64,000 nucleotides of DNA from Parcubacteria group bacterium (GTDB lineage Bacteria; Patescibacteriota; Minisyncoccia; Phycocordibacterales; CALRBT01): NCBI GenBank assembly GCA_943354475.1, contig CALRBT010000003.1, forward strand, positions 1,208-65,207, given 5' to 3'. The position numbers and the translations under genes were made by a program. Positions 8,868 to 52,352 of the stretch are shown here, piece after piece (position 1 is the first letter of the stretch; the number at the start of each line of letters is the position of its first letter). The notes beneath the pieces were generated by a model. That model saw only the letters and a program-made list of their open reading frames with translations, did no database searches and was not told the DNA's origin.

Positions 8868-9251
8868 ATGGCAATCGACAAGTCCGTGAACATCCTGATC
8901 GTCGACAACTACAAGACCATACTGCGGATCATCTGCAACCTTCTGAAGCAGATCGAGTTCAACAATGTCGAGGAAGCGACCGATGGAGACGAAGCGCTGT
9001 CCAAGCTACGCTCTGGCAATTTCGGTCTGGTGATCAGCGAATGGAAGATGTCGCCAATGACCGGGTTGCGGTTGCTGAAGGAAGTCCGGGCTGATACCAA
9101 ACTGAAGGGCTTACCCTTCATTATGGTAAGTGGCGAAGGGGGGATCGAAAGGGTCGTCGTGGCCACGCAGGCAGGTGCATCAGGCTTCCTTGGCAAACCA
9201 TTCAACATTGAGACATTGAAGTTGGCAATCGAAAGGTGTTGCCGTACATAA
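8868..9251 (+). CDS. Stand-alone CheY-like receiver domain, atypical (Glu at phosphoacceptor position), GC-rich
   Basis: Receiver fold with DN instead of DD (res 13-14), LVISEWKMSPMTG (E58 where D57 is expected), S88 and K110 conserved; ~50-55% GC versus ~38-40% surroundings; own promoter and terminator. Confidence 0.85.
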   Translation: MAIDKSVNILIVDNYKTILRIICNLLKQIEFNNVEEATDGDEALSKLRSGNFGLVISEWKMSPMTGLRLLKEVRADTKLKGLPFIMVSGEGGIERVVVATQAGASGFLGKPFNIETLKLAIERCCRT

Positions 9252-9261
9252 GTCTTGAAAC

Positions 9262-9305
9262 AACCCGCCGCGCTGGCTTGCCAGCGCGGCGGTTAGTTAT
9301 TTAAT
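9262..9305 (+). terminator. Rho-independent terminator (GC-rich ~13 bp stem + T-tract)
   Basis: cccgccgcgctggc-ttg-gccagcgcggcgg followed by ttagttatttaattt immediately after the receiver stop codon. Confidence 0.7.
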
Positions 9306-9387
9306 TTATAATTCTAAGTATTCATTAGATCTGGTTATGGTAGTCATCTTTTAGTATATGGAGTTTGTTCAAGTAGTGATAGTATAG

Positions 9388-9885
9388 TTGAGTAACCTTT
9401 GTATGGATTCTGAAACACGAATTTCACTTGAAGAATTTATTAAAAAAGTTCCGCACTCTCGGATGGTGTATCCAGAGTCACTTTACGACCGCTTTAAGTA
9501 TGTTTTTTGGCGATTATACACGCCATATCACCCCCTAGTTAGAGATACGGCGCTTATTTTGGGTATTGTAGAGCATCGTGGGAGGCAGGACTTCGTGTTG
9601 GGTAAAGTGACTCCTGATTTGTCAGTAGAGGAGTTTATTAATTTCGTAATAGGTCTCGGTTTTAAAAACCATTTTATTGCCTGGAAAGACACGGACGAAC
9701 TCGTAAGTCTTCGCTATGCGAAAAACTTTGTCTACCAATATCATCTTCGGGTATATAAAGACGGGGAAGTGCGTGGCCACTATGAATATACACCTGAATG
9801 TCGCCCAATTTATCATATGCGGGAAGTAGGAATGGAAGATCGTCGTGACGAGTTTCTCAAGTTTTTACAAGGCAAAATTGTTTAG
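9388..9885 (+). CDS. Hypothetical protein (165 aa)
   Basis: Intact ORF with low GC, no recognisable motif. Confidence 0.45.
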   Translation: MSNLCMDSETRISLEEFIKKVPHSRMVYPESLYDRFKYVFWRLYTPYHPLVRDTALILGIVEHRGRQDFVLGKVTPDLSVEEFINFVIGLGFKNHFIAWKDTDELVSLRYAKNFVYQYHLRVYKDGEVRGHYEYTPECRPIYHMREVGMEDRRDEFLKFLQGKIV

Positions 9886-10021
9886 TGATTTTTTTGGCCA
9901 ATAAATACACGCCAAGGGAGTGACTGATAATGTGCAATAAAATATCTCTTTTTAGAGACTTTTTTAGTTTTACTTTAATTTACTTTTTTAACTTCAATCC
10001 TTAACTCTTTCAATATTTGAG

Positions 10022-10582
10022 TTATTCAGTCAAAGTTTCATTCTGAGACCATATGCCATAATCAAAAATGTCAGCATTTATACTAGGTCTTACATAGAAT
10101 TTAATCTCATATCTATATTTATTTTTGCTATAATCTTCATATTCAATATCCATAACAAGATGATTACTAGTTGGCTCAATATCTTCCAATAAACTTTCAC
10201 GGTTTGAGATTATACCTTCAACTCTCTGGTTACCAGGTCCCAAGTTTGAATTCAATGTAGGAACTCCTTTAACTCCCACTCTTTCACCGCTTTTGAATTC
10301 ATCATAGAAAGCTACTTTAACTGATGATGCTGGGGTGTTACCAGAATTTTTAATTGTAATTCCAGAGTAGAACATCCCGTCACTTCTTTTTTTGATAACG
10401 GCATCTGTTACAGAAACATAGGCTCTATTTAGAATAAGATCTGTTTTTTGTTGATTGTTTAAAATATCAACTGAGGTTTTCCAGCTAAAAAAAGTGAAAA
10501 ATGAAAAAATTGCAATAACTATCGTTGATATGGTTTGAATCTCGACGTTGTGTTCCTTTAAAAAACTGAAGAATTTACTCAC
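10022..10582 (-). CDS. Hypothetical membrane-anchored protein (186 aa)
   Basis: Single N-terminal TM helix, extracytoplasmic domain of unknown function. Confidence 0.45.
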   Translation of the reverse strand: MSKFFSFLKEHNVEIQTISTIVIAIFSFFTFFSWKTSVDILNNQQKTDLILNRAYVSVTDAVIKKRSDGMFYSGITIKNSGNTPASSVKVAFYDEFKSGERVGVKGVPTLNSNLGPGNQRVEGIISNRESLLEDIEPTSNHLVMDIEYEDYSKNKYRYEIKFYVRPSINADIFDYGIWSQNETLTE

Positions 10583-10597
10583 AAAAAGTATTACAGC

Positions 10598-11948: not shown

Positions 11949-12896
11949 TTATAGTGTTACACCTACTTTCTCTCGTACTTCTGCCATTTTTACTGTTGCG
12001 ATCGCCTTTGCTTTGATACCTCCCTCATACAAAACTTTTTTAACCTCTTCGTCAGTTATCGTGGCACGCCGTTCGCGCATAGGAGCAAAATAAGTATTAA
12101 TGTCTTCAATCAACGCATCTTTGAGTGCCTTGTAACTACCTTTATTGGTCTCGTAAAGTGTAGCGAGCTCAGTCTCTGTTTTAAAAAGGGTATGTATTGC
12201 GTAGACATTTTGAGGCCTCTCTCCTCCTGAGTCAGTTACAATACTCATTACTGCCTTAGCAATTTCGTCCCTGGTGGCAAATAATGGAATTGTATTTTTG
12301 TAACTCTTGGACATTTTTTGACCATCGGTACCTGGCACAACACCCACTACTTTACTGATGAGTTCGGCAGGTTCTTTAAATGTGTTTCCAAAGGTTAGGT
12401 TAAACTTTGCGGCAGCCTCACGTGCGTACTCGACATGCTGGCGTTGATCCTCACCCACTGGCACAATATCAGTATCATAGAGCAAAATGTCTGCCGCCAT
12501 GAGCATGGGGTAGGTAAATAATCCAGCATTTGGTTCGAGTCCCTTAGCCACCTTGTCTTTATAGGCGTGTCCTTGCATTAAAAACGGAACGGTCACAAGG
12601 CAGTCAAATATCCACGCTAATTCAGTGTGCTCAGATACATCTGATTGTTTAAAAAGTATTGCGTTATTGGTGTTGAGTCCTGCCGCAAGATAATCTTTAA
12701 CATTTTCAATAATATTGGTTCGTAGCTCACTCGGGTTTTTAAGGCTGGTGAGCGCATGGTAGTCAGCCACCATAAAAAGCCCTTGATGCTCTGCAAACAT
12801 ATCTACGTTTGGCTTGATGGCGCCAAAGTAGTTGCCGATATGCATCTGTCCGCTCGGCTGGAGTCCTGTAAATAGTCGTTTTTTACCTTCATTCAT
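11949..12896 (-). CDS. trpS: Tryptophanyl-tRNA synthetase
   Basis: GLQPSGQMHIGNYFGA (HIGH) and KMSKS motifs, 315 aa. Confidence 0.85.
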   Translation of the reverse strand: MNEGKKRLFTGLQPSGQMHIGNYFGAIKPNVDMFAEHQGLFMVADYHALTSLKNPSELRTNIIENVKDYLAAGLNTNNAILFKQSDVSEHTELAWIFDCLVTVPFLMQGHAYKDKVAKGLEPNAGLFTYPMLMAADILLYDTDIVPVGEDQRQHVEYAREAAAKFNLTFGNTFKEPAELISKVVGVVPGTDGQKMSKSYKNTIPLFATRDEIAKAVMSIVTDSGGERPQNVYAIHTLFKTETELATLYETNKGSYKALKDALIEDINTYFAPMRERRATITDEEVKKVLYEGGIKAKAIATVKMAEVREKVGVTL

Positions 12897-15353: not shown

Positions 15354-16556
15354 TTATTTCGATGAATTACTTTTTATTATATACTTTATTTTTTCTAATT
15401 TCTCGGGAGTTATCAACTCCTTTCTATTTTGAAATGCACCAATAGTAAAATCGAGTATTTTTCCAAGTGATGAGACGTGGTCTACGTGTTCCAAAGTTGC
15501 CCGATCAATAACATAATTTTCATCCCACTCTTCACTTGCAAGGACAAGTACTTCTGCTAGACAGCAAAAATTATCGTTTCGGTTTTTTAATCCAAAATTA
15601 AAATTACTATGAATCTCTGGGGTATGCACGACACCAGCCTCAACAATCAAAACATCTTCCCTATCAAGAACATCATCTGAAACATCCGATGGTTGTGCAT
15701 CGTCAACGACAATCGCCCCAGGCTTTAAATGCTCACTTTTGATGAGCGCTTCTGGTGTATTTGTGGCTGTAATAATAACATCAGCGGTTTTAATGGTTTC
15801 AACAGTGTCTGAAATTTCAATATCTATGTTTGGATTTATTTTTCGCAGCTCCTCTGCTAGTTTTTGTACTTGAATGTGTTTCCGTAGTACGTCAACTAGT
15901 TGTAAAAATTTAAAACCTTTTCTTGCAATAATCATTGCTGAGGTTGTACCAACTGATCCAGCAGAGCCAACAATTGCGATTTTACAGGTCTCTTTATTAA
16001 TCCCCATATACTCAATGAGCGTAAGAGCATTAGAGGTAACGTTATGCGCTGTGTAAGCATGACCTGTGGTAATGTTTACATCTTTGTGTCTATCAACAAG
16101 GTCTAATCCTCCACGACTAATCGAGGAAGTCAGTGCGCCAAGCCCAATTAGCTTTACACCACGTCTTTTTGCCATATTAATAGCCTTATTCATTTGCTCT
16201 AAGGCTTTTCCTCTATTTTTAAGCATTTGAGGTGCTGTCATTGGAATAGAAACGACATAACCCTTAATTGGTTTCCCGGTTTTCTTTGATACGAGGCCAG
16301 TAATTCTAGAAACGGTAACTGGCCAAAAATTGTGTGAGAAAAAAGTAACAAATGATTCAGGGAAGTATTTGAGGAATGGAAATTTTCGAAAAATATCCTC
16401 ATTATTTCTTGGATGCACCAAAAACATGTAACTATATGATCGGTTTACATGAACAGGAAACGTATGAAAAAAAATATCCTTGGTAAGAGAAAAAGATGAT
16501 TTGAGTATATTATTTATTCCCTTATACATAGTTGGTTGGATAGCAGTATAACTCAC
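15354..16556 (-). CDS. COG5322-family NAD(P)-dependent oxidoreductase, homologous to cyanobacterial acyl-ACP reductase (AAR)
   Basis: Blocks ITTGHAYTAH, CKIAIVGSAGSVGTTS (Rossmann), NFCCLAEVLVLASEEWDE align to AAR TTGNTHTAY / VAVVGATGDIGSAV / catalytic-Cys region; GTG start overlaps plsC stop by 1 nt. Confidence 0.6.
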   Translation of the reverse strand: MSYTAIQPTMYKGINNILKSSFSLTKDIFFHTFPVHVNRSYSYMFLVHPRNNEDIFRKFPFLKYFPESFVTFFSHNFWPVTVSRITGLVSKKTGKPIKGYVVSIPMTAPQMLKNRGKALEQMNKAINMAKRRGVKLIGLGALTSSISRGGLDLVDRHKDVNITTGHAYTAHNVTSNALTLIEYMGINKETCKIAIVGSAGSVGTTSAMIIARKGFKFLQLVDVLRKHIQVQKLAEELRKINPNIDIEISDTVETIKTADVIITATNTPEALIKSEHLKPGAIVVDDAQPSDVSDDVLDREDVLIVEAGVVHTPEIHSNFNFGLKNRNDNFCCLAEVLVLASEEWDENYVIDRATLEHVDHVSSLGKILDFTIGAFQNRKELITPEKLEKIKYIIKSNSSK

Positions 16557-17236
16557 TAATTTAGTTTAGATTTTACTGCTTCAAGTATTAACTCCCCGTG
16601 GGCTCTGTACTCATCGGGAGGAAGCTCGCTTTGCCAGGGCTGTGGAAATGGAATTGGTGTACCAAAATGGACTTTGAAGTGTCGTTTTCGACTGAGAAAT
16701 TCATTTGTAGTTGTTTCAAAGACTCCACTAATGGTTACTGGGACTATCGGTACCCCTGTTCGATGCGAAAGAAAGCCGACTCCTCCGTGTGCCCTACCCA
16801 TATTCCCATCGCGGGAGAGGTACCCCTCAGGGAAGATGCAGAGCGACCCACCATCAAAGATTATTTGTGTATGATTACGAAGGGCGAAAGCGTAGTCCCT
16901 ACGTCCTGAGAATACTGGATAGGATCCCCAAGCATTAAAAAATTTACCCCCATAGATTCTGGAGCGCCAACCAAATGTTTTATTTTTAAAGGCTTTGTCT
17001 TCAGCTGCGGTATAGAACATTGGTATGAAGCGTGAGAACATTGGCAGTGCCGCAGGAACAAGGATTGGATCCCACTCACTCAAGTGGTTAGCTGCAAAAA
17101 TAACAGGGCTTTTGTAATTTTTAAGGTTTTCTAGCCCCTCAATTTTAAAGTGAACAAAGAAACCAAAAATTATTTTGGTTGGAATCCAAATAAGGCTCTG
17201 GAGTAGAAATGGGGGCAGGAAATATAATCGCTTCAT
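16556..17236 (-). CDS. plsC: 1-acyl-sn-glycerol-3-phosphate acyltransferase family protein
   Basis: HxxxxD acyltransferase motif (NHLSEWD), PEG-like block (FPEGYLSRDG). Confidence 0.75.
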   Translation of the reverse strand: MKRLYFLPPFLLQSLIWIPTKIIFGFFVHFKIEGLENLKNYKSPVIFAANHLSEWDPILVPAALPMFSRFIPMFYTAAEDKAFKNKTFGWRSRIYGGKFFNAWGSYPVFSGRRDYAFALRNHTQIIFDGGSLCIFPEGYLSRDGNMGRAHGGVGFLSHRTGVPIVPVTISGVFETTTNEFLSRKRHFKVHFGTPIPFPQPWQSELPPDEYRAHGELILEAVKSKLN

Positions 17237-17293
17237 TCAATGCTCATACTATAAATCAAATCAGTAAATTTGGAAACAGTGCCTATTTTCCAC

Positions 17294-17797
17294 TTACCTT
17301 CTTGCAACAAAAAAAACTACGATAATTGGAATAGAAAGCCAGTAAAAGATATATTTTTCAGGCGAAAATAGTGGCGCAATCAAGTTTGAGAAGTGATAAA
17401 TTGTATCAATTGGGAGGAAATGATACGCCGAAACGAAAATTACACAGAGTAGTGAGAGCGCTAAAAGTGCTGACTCAAGTAGTTTCTTTAAAAGAGAGTA
17501 AGGGAATTCGGTCGAGACAACTCTCTTGATAAGAAAGAAGATAATAAACCACAGTGCAACAAATAGTCCGAGTGACACACTAGCTGCAGCAGTATCCCCT
17601 TTCAAAAATGGAAATGATGGAAAGATAAAGAGTGCAATGTAGCTCGAGATAAGGAGAGCTATTGATTTTGATTTACCAAAATAGAACGAGAAAGCAGTTA
17701 ATCCAAGGAAAAGGAGGAGAATGACGACTACATCAAAAGATACATGGGCAACAGAGCCCCAAACACTTGCAACAACTGGAGGTAAATTATTTTCCAC
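17294..17797 (-). CDS. Hypothetical membrane protein (167 aa)
   Basis: 4-5 TM helices, GTG start. Confidence 0.45.
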   Translation of the reverse strand: MENNLPPVVASVWGSVAHVSFDVVVILLLFLGLTAFSFYFGKSKSIALLISSYIALFIFPSFPFLKGDTAAASVSLGLFVALWFIIFFLIKRVVSTEFPYSLLKKLLESALLALSLLCVIFVSAYHFLPIDTIYHFSNLIAPLFSPEKYIFYWLSIPIIVVFFVARR

Positions 17798-17840
17798 TTA
17801 GACACTATAACGCAAAAAACGTTTTTATTCTTTGATTGTT

Positions 17841-18112
17841 GGGGATAAGGGAACGACACGTTTTTTTCAAAACGTGTCGCGACACTTATCCTCTTGAGGA
17901 TAAGGAGTGTGCCTTACCCTTTTGGTCTGGGTTCGGTAAGGTAAGGGAGCGTAGCGGACACTTGTGTCGCATAGCAAGACTAACGAAGCGAACACTTGAG
18001 GGTACACTCATACCCTCGAGTATATGTCCTGTGGGTATAAGGGAGAACTATGTTTTTCTAAAACATAGTTCGAACACTTATACTCTTGAGTATAAGGAGT
18101 GTTGCCTTACTC
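17841..18112. repeat. Tandem pair of ~80-nt structured repeat units (17841-17919 and 18033-18112) with a related hairpin in the spacer
   Basis: Units align end to end; each has two hairpins (cgacacgttttt..aaaacgtgtcg / aactatgttttt..aaaacatagtt and cacttatcctc-ttga-gaggataagg / cacttatactc-ttga-gagtataagg) with compensatory substitutions; spacer hairpin acacttgagggta-cactca-taccctcgagtat. Confidence 0.6.
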
Positions 18113-18128
18113 TCTGTAGGTATACACG

Positions 18129-19220
18129 CTACACCCCCTTTTCTCTCAGCTCTTCGACAATTTTCTTTGATTCTTTAGATAATTTTGTTGGAAGTTGAAT
18201 ACGAACTTTGATTAGGAGATCTCCTCTCTTTCCTTTTCCAAGAACAACACCCTTACCTTTGACTTGTAGTATCTCACCAAACGTGACCCCTTCAGGAATG
18301 ACAACAGCAAGGTCTCCATCGAGTGTTTTTAGTTTATATTCTGCACCCAAGATTGCATCCGTTAGCTTAACCTTCATATCAGTAACAAGATTAGCCCCCT
18401 CTTTTTTGAAATCAGGATGGGGTTTGATATGAACTTTGATGTACAGATCTCCAGAAGTTCCACCTGCTACCGCCTCCCCTCCGCCAGTCATTCGAATCAT
18501 TTCGCCATCATTCATTCCTGCAGGAATTGCTACACTTATTTCTTCTTGTCGTTCATGGACGCCGTGGCCGTGACAGGTCTGACATTTATCCTTCGGCATT
18601 TTACCCGAACCCCTACAGACTGAACACGTCTTTACAGAACTGAAAGAACCCATAAATGAACGTTTGGTTTCGTGAACCTGTCCCTTGCCATTACAGGTGG
18701 TGCAGATAATCATTTCACTCCCAGCTTTTGCTCCAGAACCACTACAGGTTAAACAGACAGCTGTTTTCTTAAAGAGTATTTTACGCTCTGTTCCAAAAAC
18801 AGAATCAGCAAAAAGAATCTCAATATCAATCGAGATATCTCGTCCACGAGGACGTCCTCCACCATGTGTCGCGCCACCAAAAATATCTCCGAAAATATCT
18901 CCAAAATCAAAACCTTGAAAGTTTCCATTCTGAAATCCGGAAAAATCAAATCCTTCAAAACCTGCACCACCCTGGAAACCACCTTGTTGTGATCCATTTC
19001 CCCCAGCTTCGTTGAATACACGCCCATAGGAATCGTACTCTGCCCGCTTCTTCTCATTCGAGAGTACGCTATATGCTTCATTCAATTCTTTGAATTTTTC
19101 CGCATCTCCAGTTTTCTTATCAGGATGGTACTTGTGAGCAAGCACACGAAAAGCCTTCTTGATTTCGTCAGCAGACGCCCCTTTCGGTACCCCTAAGATT
19201 TCGTAATAGTTTTTAGCCAC
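18129..19220 (-). CDS. dnaJ: Chaperone DnaJ
   Basis: J domain with HPD, G/F-rich linker, four CxxCxGxG zinc-finger repeats, C-terminal domains. Confidence 0.95.
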
Positions 19221-24044: not shown

Positions 24045-24129
24045 ATTTTTTATTATATTAAAAAGTTATCTATGAAAAAATATTATGCATTATTTTTAAA
24101 AATAATGCAAATTTAGCTCCTAAGAGGCG

Positions 24130-41429: not shown

Positions 41430-41431
41430 TA

Positions 41432-41554
41432 GGGGTTAGGTTGTAGGAATTAGCTTATAGGGGGTTAGGAAATAACCGTGCGCGCCGTAGGCGCGCACGG
41501 TTATTTCCTTTTTTGTGTACCCTAACCCCTATACCCTAGTCTCTAACTCCTACC
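41432..41554. repeat. Intergenic hairpin element, copy 1 (19-bp perfect stem, 3-nt loop, flanked by ctaggggttagg-type arms that are themselves inverted)
   Basis: ggaaataaccgtgcgcgcc-gta-ggcgcgcacggttatttcc (~41468-41508) + TTTTTTGTG; upstream aggggttaggttgtagg...gggggttagg, downstream taccctaacccctataccctag (reverse complement of upstream arm). Confidence 0.6.
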
Positions 41555-48192: not shown

Positions 48193-48221
48193 GAGAAAAG
48201 TATAACATAACTAGGGGTTAG

Positions 48222-48322
48222 GTTTTAGGGGGTAGGTTATGAGAGAAACCTCTGTCGCCTATGGCGACAGAGGTTTCTCTTATGACTAAAAGCTAACACC
48301 TAAAAGCTATAACCTTGCTCTC
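48222..48322. repeat. Intergenic hairpin element, copy 2 (18-19-bp stem, 3-nt loop, same ctaggggttagg flank as copy 1)
   Basis: ctaggggttaggttttagggggtaggttat + (g)agagaaacctctgtcgcc-tat-ggcgacagaggtttctct (~48242-48282); stem sequence differs from copy 1 by paired compensatory changes. Confidence 0.6.
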
Positions 48323-49469: not shown

Positions 49470-52352
49470 TTATTTACTTAAAAAGTTAATAAGTCTATCT
49501 TTTACATAAAAAACCTTGGTAAATCCTCCCTCCGGGAGCCACTTTTTTACCACCTCAAGCCCTAAAGCTGTTTCTTGAATTTCTGCCTGTGGTAGTCCTG
49601 CCTGCGCAGTAAAGGTCGCTCGAACTTTGCCATCAATCTGCACCGCGATAGTTACCTCATCTTCAGTGATGAGTTTTGGATCATATGCTGGCCAGGACTC
49701 AAGGTGTATTGATTTTTCGCTACCTAAATTTTGCCAAATCTCTTCGGTGACATGTGGAGTGAATGGGGCTAACATCATCAGAAGTGTTTTGTAAATTCCC
49801 TCCTCAATTGTTTCTTGTCGATCCAACTCATTAACCAGAATCATCATCGAACTAATAGCAGTATTGAACTTCATCTCTTCAATATCCTCCGATACTTTCT
49901 TTAATGTCTTATGAAGAAGGTTTTTTATCTTTTTATTCTCTTCCTTCCCACTAGTTCCAGCCTTTTCTTGCAACCTCCATACCTTTTCAACAAAACGTCT
50001 GACGCCCACGATACCATTACTATCCCATGCGACTGCTTGATCAAAGGGACCCATAAACATCTCATAGAGACGAACGCTATCTGCGCCAAATGGTTCGATG
50101 ACATCTGCTGGAGTGACCCCATTTCCCTTTGATTTAGAGAATTTTGATCCGTCATCGGCTAAAATAAGGCCGTGGGATGTTCGTTTAGCGTACGGCTCTG
50201 CAGTCGGCACAAGTCCTAAATCGTAAAGAAATTTATGCCAAAAACGGGAGTAGAGTAAGTGAAGTGTGGTGTGTTCCATTCCACCGTTATACCAATCAAC
50301 CGGAGTAAAGTATCCGAGCGCCTCCTTACTTGCAAATTCATTACTGTTATCAGGGTCGGCGTAACGCAAATAGTACCAACTAGAGCCCGCCCAGTTGGGC
50401 ATCGTATCTGTCTCACGTTTAGCAGGACCCTTACAAGCCGGACACGCTACATTGACCCACTCGGTGATAGCCGAGAGTGGTGACTCACCATCATCCGTTG
50501 GTGTGTAATTCTCTACATTAGGTAGCTCAACGGGCAACTCTATTTCTGGTACGGGTACGTAACCACATTTTGGACAATGAATGACAGGAATTGGCTCCCC
50601 CCAATATCGTTGACGAGAAAAAACCCAATCACGAAGTTTAAAGGTTGTCTTAATAGTACCTCCAACAAACTCGGTTATTTTATTTTTTGCTTCTTCACTT
50701 GATAATCCATCAAATTCTCCAGAATTTCCAAGATACCCGAGATCAAGATAACAATAATCTGGGTTGTCGAGGATATTGAGTAAAAAACGACCTTCAAAGA
50801 CTGAGAAAAAGTCTTTGAGCTCCTCTTTCTTTTTCCATACGAATTCGTGTTTTTCGGCCTCTACTTGATCAACTGCATCACGCTCTTCGTTTTCGAGTTC
50901 AAAGTATAAGTAACGAAACCTGGCCCAACGATTTTGTTTTTTTTGTTGATGATAGAAAAAAGTATTGACAGTCCATTTTGGGTCGTTAATAAATCGTACA
51001 TTTCTATAACCAGATTCTTCTTTAATCTCACGAGTCGCCGCTTCAACAACATCTTCTCCGTCTTCAATTCCCCCCGTAAGAAGACCTTGCATGTGGCTCG
51101 TTTTCCAAACATTACAGAGATAGGTGTCGTCTTTTGGGTTCTTTAGTACAACACAGACCGCGTCCCTTTTTACAAACTTCTCTCCTACTTTAGGAGCACC
51201 CTCTTCTTTACCTATATACACTGGTTCAATAACTCGTTTAATAGACAATCCGAACTTCTTTGCAAACTCAAAGTCACGCTCATCATGAGCGGGTACCGCC
51301 ATGATTGCACCTGTTCCGTAGTGTGCCAAAACATAATCTGCAATAAATACAGGAATTTCCTCACCATTTGCTGGGTTGATAGCCTTAAGTCCTTGAAGCT
51401 CAACACCCGTTTTTTCTTTTCCTGCGTCGGTGCGCTCAATTTCTGTTTTCTTTTTTACAGCTTGGATATATTTATTCACTTCATCGGCGTTTGTGACCCG
51501 AGACGCCAAATTTTTCACAAGCTCATGTTCAGGAGCAATCACTAAATACGTTACACCAAAGAGTGTATCTGCTCTTGTCGTAAAGACTTTAATCTTTGTT
51601 TCTTCCCCCTGCGAGGATAAGTGTTCGCTATGCTCCCTTAGATTCTCAATCTTAAATTCTATTTCCGAACCCTCTGATTTACCAATCCAATTTCTCTGTT
51701 GAATTTTGATTTTCTCCAAATAGTTTACATCGTCAAGATCTTTATCGAGTCGCTCTGCATACTTGGTAATGGCAAGCATCCACTGCTCTTTCTCTCGTTT
51801 CTCGGTAGGTCCTCCACAACGTTCACAGTGTCCATCAATCACCTCTTCATCTGCCAAACCAACCTTACAACTCAAACACCAATTAATTGGACGTTTTGCT
51901 TTATACGCTAAACCTTTTTTAAAGAATTGCAGGAATATCCATTGTGTCCATTTGTAGTATTTAGGGTCGGTTGTATTGATCTCTCGTGACCAGTCAAAAG
52001 AAAAGCCGAGGGATTTGAGTTGTTTACGAAAATTATCTGTATTTTGCTTCGTTACAATCTCTGGATGAACCCCCGTCTTTATTGCGTAATTTTCTGTCGG
52101 CAAACCAAATGCGTCCCAACCAATTGGGTAGAGTACATTGAAGCCCTCCATGCGTCGCTTACGAGCAATGATATCCATCGCCGTATTACTACGAATGTGC
52201 CCAACATGAAGTCCTGTTCCTGATGGATATGGGAATTCAATCAAGGGGTAGAATTTTTTCTTTGGTGATGAAGTTAGAGCTTTATTGGGCTCTGTCTTCT
52301 CCCAAACATCCTGCCACTTCTTTTCTATTTTCTTGTGGTCATAAGCCTTCAT
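49470..52352 (-). CDS. leuS: Leucyl-tRNA synthetase carrying an inserted NUDIX hydrolase domain (~aa 385-535)
   Basis: HVGH (HIGH), editing-domain TTRADT / AVPAHD, KFSKSKGN (KMSKS), anticodon-binding domain; between KRVIEP and NSGEFDGL...KLRDWVFSRQRYWG lies GGIEDGEDVVEAATREIKEESGY (Nudix box). Confidence 0.9.
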   Translation of the reverse strand: MKAYDHKKIEKKWQDVWEKTEPNKALTSSPKKKFYPLIEFPYPSGTGLHVGHIRSNTAMDIIARKRRMEGFNVLYPIGWDAFGLPTENYAIKTGVHPEIVTKQNTDNFRKQLKSLGFSFDWSREINTTDPKYYKWTQWIFLQFFKKGLAYKAKRPINWCLSCKVGLADEEVIDGHCERCGGPTEKREKEQWMLAITKYAERLDKDLDDVNYLEKIKIQQRNWIGKSEGSEIEFKIENLREHSEHLSSQGEETKIKVFTTRADTLFGVTYLVIAPEHELVKNLASRVTNADEVNKYIQAVKKKTEIERTDAGKEKTGVELQGLKAINPANGEEIPVFIADYVLAHYGTGAIMAVPAHDERDFEFAKKFGLSIKRVIEPVYIGKEEGAPKVGEKFVKRDAVCVVLKNPKDDTYLCNVWKTSHMQGLLTGGIEDGEDVVEAATREIKEESGYRNVRFINDPKWTVNTFFYHQQKKQNRWARFRYLYFELENEERDAVDQVEAEKHEFVWKKKEELKDFFSVFEGRFLLNILDNPDYCYLDLGYLGNSGEFDGLSSEEAKNKITEFVGGTIKTTFKLRDWVFSRQRYWGEPIPVIHCPKCGYVPVPEIELPVELPNVENYTPTDDGESPLSAITEWVNVACPACKGPAKRETDTMPNWAGSSWYYLRYADPDNSNEFASKEALGYFTPVDWYNGGMEHTTLHLLYSRFWHKFLYDLGLVPTAEPYAKRTSHGLILADDGSKFSKSKGNGVTPADVIEPFGADSVRLYEMFMGPFDQAVAWDSNGIVGVRRFVEKVWRLQEKAGTSGKEENKKIKNLLHKTLKKVSEDIEEMKFNTAISSMMILVNELDRQETIEEGIYKTLLMMLAPFTPHVTEEIWQNLGSEKSIHLESWPAYDPKLITEDEVTIAVQIDGKVRATFTAQAGLPQAEIQETALGLEVVKKWLPEGGFTKVFYVKDRLINFLSK

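What the first reader, a model, noticed from the sequence alone, without database searches (positions are those of the whole stretch)
17798..18128. Tandem pair of ~80-nt structured elements with compensatory base changes downstream of dnaJ
Two units (17841-17919, 18033-18112) align end to end and each carries two hairpins. Where the units differ, both arms change together so that pairing is preserved: cgacacg/cgtgtcg versus aactatg/catagtt, and atcctc/gaggat versus atactc/gagtat. The 5' segment gg(g/t)ataaggg can also pair with the internal cttat(c/a)c, giving mutually exclusive pairings typical of attenuator or riboswitch-like switches. The 113-nt spacer holds a third related hairpin (acacttgagggta..taccctcgagtat) sharing the same acactt / gagt(g/a)t flanks. 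Selection has evidently acted on structure rather than sequence. Candidates are a duplicated small RNA or sRNA pair, protein-binding RNA motifs at the 3' end of the dnaK operon, a REP-like mobile hairpin family, or the leader of the downstream membrane-protein gene. The cac..ctc/gag..gtg arms are faintly CIRCE-like, but it is not a CIRCE.
Basis: seen in the sequence. Interest (0 to 1): 0.58.

Follow-up and report, generated by a model that had tools for sequence, protein, structure and literature searches.

The report
Diverged palindromic repeat array after dnaJ
The spacer between dnaJ and the next gene of this Patescibacteria genome holds three diverged tandem copies of a small hairpin-forming repeat; the hairpins have stayed paired while their sequence changed, but the repeat is lineage-specific filler of the REP/BOX/MITE kind, not a riboswitch or gene leader.

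Summary
Units 17840-17920 and 18032-18114 are 74% identical. All 30 modelled base pairs survive, and 7 of them changed on both sides (0 of 300,000 random-mutation simulations left no broken pair). The 113-nt "spacer" is a degenerate third unit, and 11 nt of a fourth follow.

The riboswitch or leader reading fails. The downstream gene has a -10 box exactly 6 nt before its start codon in five lineages, so its mRNA is leaderless and the units lie upstream of its promoter. Four relatives (DnaJ 79-89% identical) lack the units at the same locus. Rfam, tRNA and terminator scans find nothing.

One core module (ATAAGTGT-insert-TCCCTTATCCCCA, preceded by a palindrome) recurs upstream of a zur promoter in a Candidatus Magasanikbacteria genome, with 28 contiguous bases identical to two window segments. 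It also occurs in short form in one relative at the orthologous locus. No further copy turned up in about 0.78 Mb of related sequence.

Best reading (about 0.45): a low-copy, modular palindromic intergenic element, locally amplified. Its stems are kept by selection for hairpins, by template-switch homogenisation, or by both. It would be transcribed only as the 3' tail of the dnaK operon. Rivals are a 3'UTR or antisense small RNA, and a protein-binding operator array. Interest is modest.

The parts
17840..17920 (.). It contains a/M3' GGGGATAAGGGAA 17841-53, hairpin H_B 17854-79, M2'+palindrome H_A 17882-17910, and e GCCTTACCCT 17911-20.
17935..18027 (.). It contains the M3'-like GGTAAGGTAAGGGAG 17935-49, two M2' copies (GCGTAGCGGACACTT 17949-63 and CGAAGCGAACACTT 17984-97), palindrome GACACTTGTGTC 17957-68, and hairpin H_C 17994-18021.
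   Evidence: (families D2, D3, D5, D12)
18032..18114 (.). It contains a/M3' GGGTATAAGGGAG 18033-45, hairpin H_B 18045-71, M2'+palindrome H_A 18074-18102, and e GCCTTACTCTC 18104-14.
18114..18124 (.). An 11-nt start of a fourth unit (CTGTAGGTATA). It repeats CTGTGGGTATA at 18029-39 and lies 5 nt from the dnaJ stop codon.
   Evidence: (family D10)
17840..17852 (-). Box M3 (TCCCTTATCCCCA) of unit A. It sits 30 nt upstream of the -10 hexamer, where relatives carry CTTTTCCCCAA or CTTTTCCACAA at 29-30 nt.
17804..17809 (-). -10-like hexamer TATAGT. It lies 6 nt before the GTG start (17797-17795) of the 167-aa membrane-protein gene. This leaderless promoter sets the downstream limit of the array.
18129..19220 (-). 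dnaJ, the last gene of grpE-dnaK-dnaJ. Its stop codon TAG (18131-18129) sets the upstream limit of the array.
17294..17797 (-). A 167-aa membrane protein with no Pfam family, first gene of the next co-directional operon (followed by a PlsC-type acyltransferase and a histidine kinase). Relatives that lack the units still have it.

Best explanation
The 331-nt spacer is a lineage-specific array of three diverged copies, plus a stub of a fourth, of a small modular palindromic intergenic element. It is the same general kind as the REP/BIME, BOX and MITE-type repeats of other bacteria.

Read on the gene-sense (minus) strand, each unit has four modules:
- a palindrome (H_A or H_C);
- M2, ATAAGTGTYCG;
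- a variable insert, either about 9 nt or a 26-27-nt perfect hairpin (H_B);
- M3, TCCCTTAYCCCCA.

Four mutually complementary about 10-nt segments (a, b, c, e) give several nearly isoenergetic folds.

Shown: the module exists in at least three Patescibacteria lineages and at two unrelated loci; it is absent from the orthologous spacer of most close relatives; and its stems stay paired while their sequence changes.

Inferred: the array arose by insertion or horizontal acquisition of the module next to the promoter of the downstream operon, followed by local tandem amplification. The stems are kept perfect by selection for hairpin formation (in single-stranded DNA or in RNA), by replication template switching that copies one arm onto the other, or by both.

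The downstream gene is leaderless. The only ordinary transcript that would cover the units is therefore read-through from dnaJ. Any function would be that of stacked 3'-end hairpins, acting as a barrier to exonucleases or an insulator between the dnaK operon and the next promoter. It is not a ligand- or ribosome-sensing switch.
For: - **Pair-preserving divergence:** 7 double changes, 0 broken pairs of 30, never matched by random mutation.
- **Repeat architecture:** The repeat finder families D1-D3, D5, D10 and D12; coordinates.
- **Absent in relatives at the same locus:** L087 (DnaJ 89%) has 108 nt with one 23-bp hairpin. L088/L086 (79%) have 127 nt with one canonical terminator. L089/L084/L085 (89%) have 270 nt of other content. 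L091 (DnaJ 88%) has a different, unrelated gene downstream of dnaJ, so it is not an orthologous spacer. blastn, nhmmer and a covariance model detect no similarity.
- **Short form in L083:** GGGCATAAGTGT|TCCCTTATACCCA at the orthologous place, in a lineage whose 167-aa protein is 57% identical.
- **Same module at an unrelated locus:** upstream of zur-znuA in Ca. Magasanikbacteria (L110/L115). It shares exact 17-mer and 16-mer matches with two window segments, contiguous as the 28-mer AAGTGTTCGCTTCGTTCCCTTATCCCCA. Homology stops exactly at ...CCCCA.
- **No known RNA family:** no Rfam family, tRNA or tmRNA.
- **Not a leader:** leaderless promoter 6 nt before the start codon in five lineages.
- **Hairpins are common here:** perfect long palindromes are a general feature of this genome's gene ends. 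The dnaJ-proximal hairpin differs in every relative, whereas another spacer hairpin (S4-rpoA) is conserved, so this spacer is a turnover hotspot.
- **Contig breaks:** contigs of two independent assemblies break inside the units (L002 at 17911; L083).
- **Template switching is a documented mechanism:** it can create and repair perfect stems in one event (PMC8794818).
- **Sequence hint of inverted copying:** in both units the first 4-6 nt of the H_B 5' arm repeat the start of the adjacent M2' (CGACAC...CGACAC; GAAC...GAAC), as expected from inverted copying (read directly from the sequence).
Against: - Copy number looks low. There is no other copy in the 64-kb window and none in about 0.78 Mb of related loci beyond L083 and L110. 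The H_A-based pattern had no hit in either large collection. A classical high-copy REP family is therefore not supported.
- No transposase or RAYT lies within 64 kb (Pfam of neighbours).
- No clear terminal inverted repeat plus target-site duplication could be defined.
- In the window, L083 and L110, M3 sits at the same 30-31 nt from the -10 box. Relatives without the element keep a similar box at 29-30 nt. This fits a promoter-associated function as well as it fits passive DNA.
- Three independent non-Watson-Crick positions (P1 position 2, L083 P1, H_C) are all G.U on the + strand and A.C on the sense strand. This mildly contradicts a role in the dnaJ 3' tail.
- None of the sense-strand hairpins is followed by a U tract.
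- With only two full copies, the balance between selection and mutational bias cannot be separated.
Confidence: 0.45

Rival explanations
1. It is a functional structured RNA: either small RNAs processed from the 3'UTR of the dnaK-operon transcript (sense strand, rich in CUCCUUA/UCCCUUA motifs), or an antisense RNA pair read from the + strand. The hairpins would be kept by selection on the RNA fold or on protein binding.
For: - Strong pair-preserving change and very low folding energies.
- Four-segment alternative pairing.
- All three non-canonical positions are G.U on the + strand (and the sequence), so one strand may be preferred.
- P1 is kept in L083 with one G.U-to-G-C change and one U.G.
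Against: - The units are absent in four of five related lineages at the same locus.
- The Magasanikbacteria copy keeps the sequence but only 5 bp of P1, and lacks H_B.
- There is no promoter-like site for a + strand RNA and no terminator on either strand.
- No Rfam family matches.
- The stems are perfect Watson-Crick palindromes, as DNA-level copying gives, rather than the G.U-rich stems typical of RNA.
- Shine-Dalgarno motifs are almost unused in this genome, so anti-SD seeds would have few targets.
Confidence: 0.2
2. It is a protein-binding DNA array. The about 10-bp word CTTATCC(C/T)C occurs four times per unit in alternating orientation, and the promoter-proximal copy (M3) is an activator or repressor site at about -43 to -55 of the downstream operon. 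The upstream copies would then be extra operators.
For: - A box (CTTTTCCCCAA, CTTTTCCACAA or CCTTATNCCCAA) is conserved 29-31 nt upstream of the -10 in all five lineages, while the surrounding spacer is not.
- The same geometry is seen at the zur promoter of L110, with the box 7 nt upstream of TTGACA.
- The words resemble the DnaA-box consensus TTATNCACA in 8 of 9 positions (read from the sequence; the consensus is from my own knowledge).
Against: - The spacing between the inverted words is 6, 15 and 35 nt in L083, L110 and the window. A dimeric DNA-binding protein does not tolerate that, but a stem does.
- The three-way covariation at the one variable position (G/T, C/A, G/T) is not expected for independent half-sites.
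- The box occurs nowhere else in the window upstream of a gene.
- An origin of replication is excluded. GC skew changes in the terminus sense, and genes keep one orientation across the site.
Confidence: 0.12
3. It is a purely local tandem triplication of the ancestral 'terminator hairpin - linker - promoter box' segment with no mobility. On this reading the Magasanikbacteria match is an unrelated transfer or a coincidence.
For: - Relatives show the layout: stop codon, one hairpin, about 10-20 nt, box, promoter. The L088 terminator arms (GGACTTAT/ATAAGTCC) resemble H_A/M2.
- A stub of a fourth unit sits at the array edge (family D10).
- No other copy exists in the window.
Against: The 28-nt identity with L110 includes 9 bases that the search pattern did not require, at an unrelated locus in another class. 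I estimate the chance of that at roughly 1e-5 from the 19 mostly random hits. The short form in L083 also argues against a purely local origin.
Confidence: 0.15
4. It is a riboswitch, attenuator or leader controlling the downstream membrane-protein gene.
For: Mutually exclusive pairings exist within each unit, and the tandem arrangement recalls tandem riboswitches.
Against: - The units lie upstream of a conserved leaderless promoter.
- There is no terminator, no SD and no Rfam hit.
- The units are not conserved in orthologous spacers.
Confidence: 0.04

Closest known systems
BOX elements of Streptococcus pneumoniae (modular boxA-boxB(n)-boxC); also RUP, Correia/NEMIS and ERIC-type miniature repeats (own knowledge)
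   Same: They are small non-coding intergenic elements built from modules that occur in variable number and combination. They fold into stable stem-loops, sit between a gene end and the next promoter, and are patchy among relatives.
   Different: Those families have tens to hundreds of copies per genome and defined ends. Here only one locus per genome has been seen, and no TIR or TSD could be defined. There is no sequence similarity to any of them (no Rfam hit, and nothing in the phage or plasmid collections).
REP/BIME and REPIN elements mobilised by RAYT (Y1) transposases (own knowledge)
   Same: They are imperfect palindromes downstream of operons, found in clusters, with compensatory change that keeps the hairpin. 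A RAYT-like Y1_Tnp gene exists in a close relative (L087).
   Different: The L087 gene is flanked by different hairpins (GGGGTCWGACCCC), which are absent from the window. There is no RAYT in the 64 kb. The units are 80 nt and multi-hairpin, not 20-40-nt single palindromes. High copy number is not seen.
Intrinsic terminators and 3'-end stabiliser hairpins
   Same: The position is directly after the last gene of an operon, and relatives carry one strong hairpin there.
   Different: No U tract follows any sense-strand hairpin. There are several hairpins instead of one.
Transcription attenuators (1:2 / 2:3 / 3:4 alternative hairpins) and tandem riboswitches
   Same: Four consecutive segments have mutually exclusive pairings of similar energy, and the units are in tandem.
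   Different: The element is not in a 5' leader. It has no expression platform, no leader peptide conserved between the units, no conservation across orthologous loci, and no Rfam family.
TIGR stem-loop arrays (PMC12045711)
   Same: They are tandem units in which a segment is 'variable but consistently palindromic', and they are reported from parasitic bacteria.
   Different: TIGR units carry two 8-12-nt non-palindromic spacers between short box C/D motifs and lie next to a Nop-domain Tas gene. Here nearly all of the unit is conserved, only the stem varies, and no such gene lies in the roughly 28 kb scanned around the site (window 225-28290).

Membership tests
Riboswitch / attenuator leader | Lies in the 5' untranslated leader, between the transcription start and the start codon of the regulated gene | tested here: not met
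   TATAGT/TATACT followed by exactly 6 nt and the start codon in the window, L083, L087, L088 and L089. The units are upstream of the -10 box.
Riboswitch / attenuator leader | Expression platform: an intrinsic terminator or a sequestered Shine-Dalgarno sequence | tested here: not met
   No terminator-like site in 17200-18700. The gene has no SD, and only 4 of 51 genes do.
Riboswitch / attenuator leader | Conserved aptamer across orthologous loci, or a match to a curated family | tested here: not met
   No Rfam hit. Absent from the spacers of L087, L088 and L089.
REP / REPIN-RAYT | Many dispersed copies of a short imperfect palindrome in one genome | tested here: inconclusive
   No further copy in the 64-kb window or in 0.78 Mb of loci. 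The rest of the source genome could not be read.
REP / REPIN-RAYT | A cognate RAYT (Y1 transposase) gene flanked by the same palindromes | tested here: not met
   tblastn with the L087 Y1_Tnp finds nothing in the window. Its flanking hairpins differ and are absent.
MITE | Terminal inverted repeats and a target-site duplication | tested here: inconclusive
   Segments a and e are roughly inverted (GGGGATAAGG / CCTTACCC). The only flanking direct repeat (CTGTRGGTATA, family D10) overlaps the unit start, so it reads as a partial unit rather than a TSD.
MITE | Copies at non-homologous loci, and presence/absence polymorphism among relatives | tested here: met
   The module lies upstream of zur in Ca. 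Magasanikbacteria. It is present in the window and L083 and absent in L087, L088 and L089.
Intrinsic terminator | A G+C-rich hairpin followed by a U tract on the transcribed strand | tested here: not met
   One search finds none. The tails after the sense-strand hairpins are UCCCUUAUACCC, AACAAUC and similar.
CIRCE (HrcA) / HAIR (HspR) heat-shock operators | TTAGCACTC-N9-GAGTGCTAA, or CTTGAGT-N7-ACTCAAG, upstream of the operon (consensus sequences from own knowledge) | tested here: not met
   Only single CTTGAG half-sites occur at hairpin tips, and CTTGAGG-N12-CCTCGAG in H_C. The site is downstream of the operon, not upstream.
oriC / DnaA-box cluster | A cluster of DnaA boxes at a GC-skew minimum with divergent gene orientation | tested here: not met
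   Four boxes match 8 of 9 positions on one strand. However, skew changes from + to - (terminus sense), and all genes stay on the minus strand.
TIGR-Tas stem-loop array | An adjacent Nop-domain Tas gene, and units with two variable non-palindromic spacers between box C/D motifs (PMC12045711) | tested here: not met
   Pfam scans of ORFs at 225-28290 show housekeeping genes only. The variable part of each unit is a palindrome stem.
Type III toxin-antitoxin antitoxin repeats | A tandem RNA repeat upstream of a ToxN/AbiQ-type endoribonuclease gene (own knowledge) | tested here: not met
   The downstream protein is a hydrophobic membrane protein with no Pfam hit, and relatives that lack the repeats still have it.

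The most novel reading that the evidence does not exclude
The module (palindrome - ATAAGTGT - variable stem - TCCCTTATCCCCA) may be a horizontally spreading regulatory cassette specific to Patescibacteria. It would dock at a fixed distance (30 nt) upstream of the -10 box of promoters and act through a four-segment structural switch in RNA or single-stranded DNA. That would make it a new class of mobile cis-regulator in these reduced genomes.
Probability: 0.1. Interest if true: 0.6.

Novelty: new member of a known kind. Interest (0 to 1): 0.3.

Why it matters
Patescibacteria genomes are small and tightly packed, and repeat families in them are hardly described. A search of the paper library for Patescibacteria together with miniature inverted repeats returned nothing relevant. 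A 330-nt stack of hairpins in a spacer that is 108-127 nt in two of the relatives, together with a 28-nt block shared with a different class at another locus, suggests that small non-coding modules move between these organisms.

The case is also a caution. Seven 'compensatory' double changes between two copies look like proof of a functional RNA, yet the context (leaderless promoter, absence in relatives, perfect palindromes) points to a DNA-level repeat. If the fixed 30-nt spacing to promoters holds in more genomes, the element would become a handle on promoter architecture in an uncultured phylum.

Tried and rejected
- **Rfam:** E-value mode on 17000-19000 and gathering mode on the whole window gave nothing relevant.
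- **ARAGORN:** no tRNA or tmRNA in the window.
- **Promoter and terminator scan:** nothing in the spacer.
- **TRF:** no tandem array called, because the units are too diverged.
- **H_A pattern ACTTATNCTCNNGAGNATAAGGAG:** 0 hits in genome contigs and in metagenome contigs.
- **dnaJ loci of 80 species:** no similarity in their downstream spacers.
- **M2-M3 gapped pattern in metagenomes:** 19 hits, of which 18 look random (coding regions, gut phage); only L110 is real.
- **Same pattern in viral contigs:** only the random gut-phage hits.
- **blastn against phage and plasmid collections:** no match.
- **Covariance model from the two units:** the best extra hit is the composite hairpin at 41454-41541 (18.9 bits). 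It is structural resemblance only and I do not count it as homologous.
- **Fur/Zur route to a second set of orthologous loci:** one homologue, in a different context and without the element.
- **Ideas rejected:** oriC or terminus, CIRCE/HAIR, TIGR array, type III antitoxin, integron attC (no integrase; long conserved flanks), DGR template/variable repeat (the differences are not adenine-specific and no reverse transcriptase was found among the Pfam-scanned neighbours), and a mini-ORF (AUG-UUU-UUC-UAA occurs only in unit C).

Full report
**Setting.** The window matches contig CALRGP010000003.1 of the metagenome-assembled genome GCA_943357905.1. Its DnaJ is closest to Patescibacteria of the Paceibacteria/Parcubacteria group, at no more than 64% identity to any species representative. 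Almost all genes are on the minus strand. The finding fills the whole 331-nt spacer between the stop codon of dnaJ (18129-19220, last gene of grpE-dnaK-dnaJ) and the GTG start of a 167-aa membrane protein with no Pfam family (17294-17797). A PlsC-type acyltransferase, a dehydrogenase-like protein and a histidine kinase follow.

**Observation.** The two units exist as described. In a structure-aware alignment of 84 columns they differ at 22 positions (74% identity). I modelled three helices:
- P1: GGGGATAAGG with C-CTTATCCTC, enclosing the inner hairpin;
- H_B: the inner hairpin;
- H_A: CTTATCCTC with GAGGATAAG.

Of their 30 pairs, 23 are unchanged and 7 changed on both sides and still pair. 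None changed on one side only, and none is broken. Five of the double changes lie in the lower stem of H_B. The other two share one column of a three-way covariation (G/T in a, C/A in b, G/T in c). In 300,000 simulations that placed the same 19 substitutions at random, no run kept every pair.

Each unit folds much better than shuffled controls on either strand. A fourth segment, e (GCCTTACCCT), pairs with c or with a. Each unit therefore has a two-hairpin fold and a three-way-junction fold only 2-5 kcal/mol apart. The c:e pairing does not covary at the variable position.

The "spacer" is a degenerate third unit. It carries a GGTAAGGTAAGGGAG copy of segment a, two ACACTT copies and the related palindrome H_C. 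Eleven bases of a fourth unit abut dnaJ. The same sequence is present in the NCBI assembly. As far as its contig reaches (114 nt), it is also present in a separate assembly of run ERR3719150.

**What it is not.** No Rfam family matches the spacer, and no family reaches gathering score anywhere in the window. There is no tRNA or tmRNA and no consensus promoter or terminator inside the spacer.

The downstream gene has a -10-like hexamer followed by exactly six bases and the start codon. This holds in the window (TATAGT, 17809-17804) and in four other lineages: L083, L087, L088 and L089. The pattern is general in this genome. Sixteen of 51 genes have such a hexamer 4-9 nt before the start, and only 4 have any Shine-Dalgarno-like word. 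The mRNA of the downstream gene therefore begins at its start codon, and the units cannot be its leader. That removes the riboswitch or attenuator reading.

GC skew changes sign near 16-18 kb, but in the terminus sense and without any change of gene orientation. The DnaA-box-like words (TTATCCTCA, TTATCCCCA and others) therefore do not mark an origin. CIRCE and HAIR consensus sequences are not met. ORFs from 225 to 28290 are housekeeping genes or lack a Pfam hit. None is a Nop-domain, transposase, integrase, reverse-transcriptase or ToxN-like protein.

**Comparison with relatives.** I fetched the orthologous locus from five related lineages through DnaJ and 167-aa-protein homologues.
- L087 (DnaJ 89%): 108-nt spacer with a single perfect 23-bp hairpin.
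- L088/L086 (79%): 127-nt spacer with one canonical terminator.
- L089/L084/L085 (89%): 270 nt of unrelated sequence.
- L091 (88%): a different neighbouring gene.
- L083 (167-aa protein 57% identical; contig cut 73 nt upstream of the gene): a short form, GGGCATAAGTGT|TCCCTTATACCCA. Here the P1 helix closes on a 6-nt loop instead of H_B.

None of the first four shows similarity to the units. All lineages keep a C-rich box (CTTTTCCCCAA, CTTTTCCACAA or CCTTATNCCCAA) 29-31 nt upstream of the -10 hexamer. This spacer is thus a turnover hotspot with one conserved promoter-proximal box. By contrast, the hairpin in the S4-rpoA spacer is conserved in sequence among the same genomes.

**A second locus.** A gapped pattern for the conserved core (ATAAGTGT-N0-30-TCCCTTATNCCCA) gave 19 metagenome hits, about the number expected by chance. 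One of them, L110, is clearly related. It reads GTGAGTATACTCTCAC-ATAAGTGTTCGCTTCGTTCCCTTATCCCCA. Its 9-nt insert, which the pattern did not specify, is identical to the one in window unit B, giving exact 17- and 16-mers against 17840-56 and 17982-97.

The contig belongs to Candidatus Magasanikbacteria, a different class. There the module lies between a macB-like ABC operon and the promoter of zur-znuA. It ends 7 nt before TTGACA and 30 nt before TATACT, the same distance as in the window. Similarity stops exactly at ...CCCCA. P1 has only 5 bp there and H_B is missing, so what is conserved is the sequence of the module, not the fold.

No other copy was found in the window, in L110/L115, or in about 0.78 Mb of fetched loci. 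None was found in phage or plasmid collections either.

**Interpretation.** The following are shown:
- a modular element (palindrome, M2, variable insert or hairpin, M3) that occurs at unrelated loci in distant Patescibacteria;
- patchy occurrence among close relatives;
- amplification to three copies here;
- stems that remain paired while their sequence differs.

This profile matches the small palindromic intergenic repeats known from other bacteria (REP/BIME, BOX, Correia, ERIC), although the copy number seen so far is low.

Two processes could keep the stems, and my data cannot separate them. One is selection for hairpin formation in RNA or single-stranded DNA. The other is replication template switching, which copies one arm of a palindrome onto the other and can create or repair a perfect stem in one event (PMC8794818). 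Three points favour a DNA-level contribution:
- all stems are perfect Watson-Crick palindromes, as are many gene-end hairpins of this genome;
- five of seven pairs in the lower H_B stem changed, including transversion pairs that have no wobble intermediate;
- in both units the first 4-6 bases of the H_B 5' arm repeat the start of the adjacent M2' segment.

Against a purely passive view, the three non-canonical positions I could find are all G.U on the + strand, and M3 keeps a fixed distance to the promoter.

If the array does anything, the most economical role is as stacked 3'-end hairpins and an insulator between the dnaK operon and the next promoter. I hold that loosely, because none of the sense-strand hairpins has a U tract.

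**Rivals.** A 3'UTR-derived or antisense small RNA (0.2) would need transcript evidence. It is weakened by the absence of the units in relatives and by the loss of structure in L110. A protein-binding operator array (0.12) is supported by the conserved box and its geometry. It is weakened by the 6/15/35-nt spacing of the inverted words and by the three-way covariation. A purely local triplication (0.15) is weakened by the Magasanikbacteria copy. The leader or riboswitch idea (0.04) is contradicted by the promoter position.

**Verdict.** Interest is modest (0.3). It would rise if a genome-wide census showed that the module sits consistently 30 nt upstream of promoters, or if discrete transcripts were found.

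Noticed in passing
window-wide; e.g. 17804-17809 (-), and upstream of the genes starting at 12896, 17236, 29554 and 48192: Translation starts look leaderless. Sixteen of 51 genes have a TAnnnT hexamer ending 4-9 nt before the start codon, and only 4 of 51 have an SD-like 4-mer. For the 167-aa gene the hexamer-6 nt-start layout is identical in five lineages.
   Followed up: partly
window 41430-41554 and 48193-48322 (minus strand): Two other spacers hold perfect 18-20-bp hairpins flanked by G-rich/C-rich inverted repeats (GGGTATAGGGGTTAGGG / CCTAACCCCCTATA). They share the exact 14-mer AACCTAACCCCTAG just upstream of the next gene. There are 10 matches with up to 3 mismatches against 3.8 expected. 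This may be a second small repeat family.
   Followed up: partly
L087 18141-18749 (relative with DnaJ 89% identical); window 8875-10597: The relative carries a 202-aa Y1_Tnp (RAYT/IS200-like) gene flanked by GGGGTCWGACCCC hairpins between aspS and the M17 peptidase gene. At that spot the window instead has two ORFs without Pfam hits (9388-9885 +, 10022-10582 -) and a GC-rich hairpin at 9265-9292. This looks like a variable island.
   Followed up: partly
window 51613-51640 (+), inside the 960-aa ORF 49470-52352 (-): GAGGATAAGTGTTCGCTATGCTCCCTTA resembles the short form of the M2-insert-M3 module (blastn E 0.005 within the window). It lies in coding sequence on the opposite strand. Whether this is chance or a relic is not resolved.
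   Followed up: no
window about 16000-18000: GC skew of the + strand goes from slightly positive (1-18 kb) to clearly negative (18-60 kb), although gene orientation does not change. The switch coincides roughly with the dnaJ spacer.
   Followed up: partly
L110 360-560 (-) / L115 4240-4440: In Ca. Magasanikbacteria a roughly 200-nt GC-rich long palindrome, closed by TGATCGTAATTTGGG...CCCAAATAACGATCA, follows the macB-like operon. Two assemblies differ by a 42-nt deletion at its apex.
   Followed up: partly
window 24086-24109; L087 5140-5225; L088 3832-3917: The hairpin TGCATTATTTTTAAAAATAATGCA in the S4-rpoA spacer is conserved in sequence across three lineages, unlike the dnaJ-proximal hairpins. 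It may be a genuine regulatory or terminator element of the alpha operon.
   Followed up: no
window 17798-18128 (+): The + strand of the spacer carries five or six copies of TAAGG(G)AG, a near-perfect Shine-Dalgarno word, in a genome that almost never uses SD sequences before genes.
   Followed up: no
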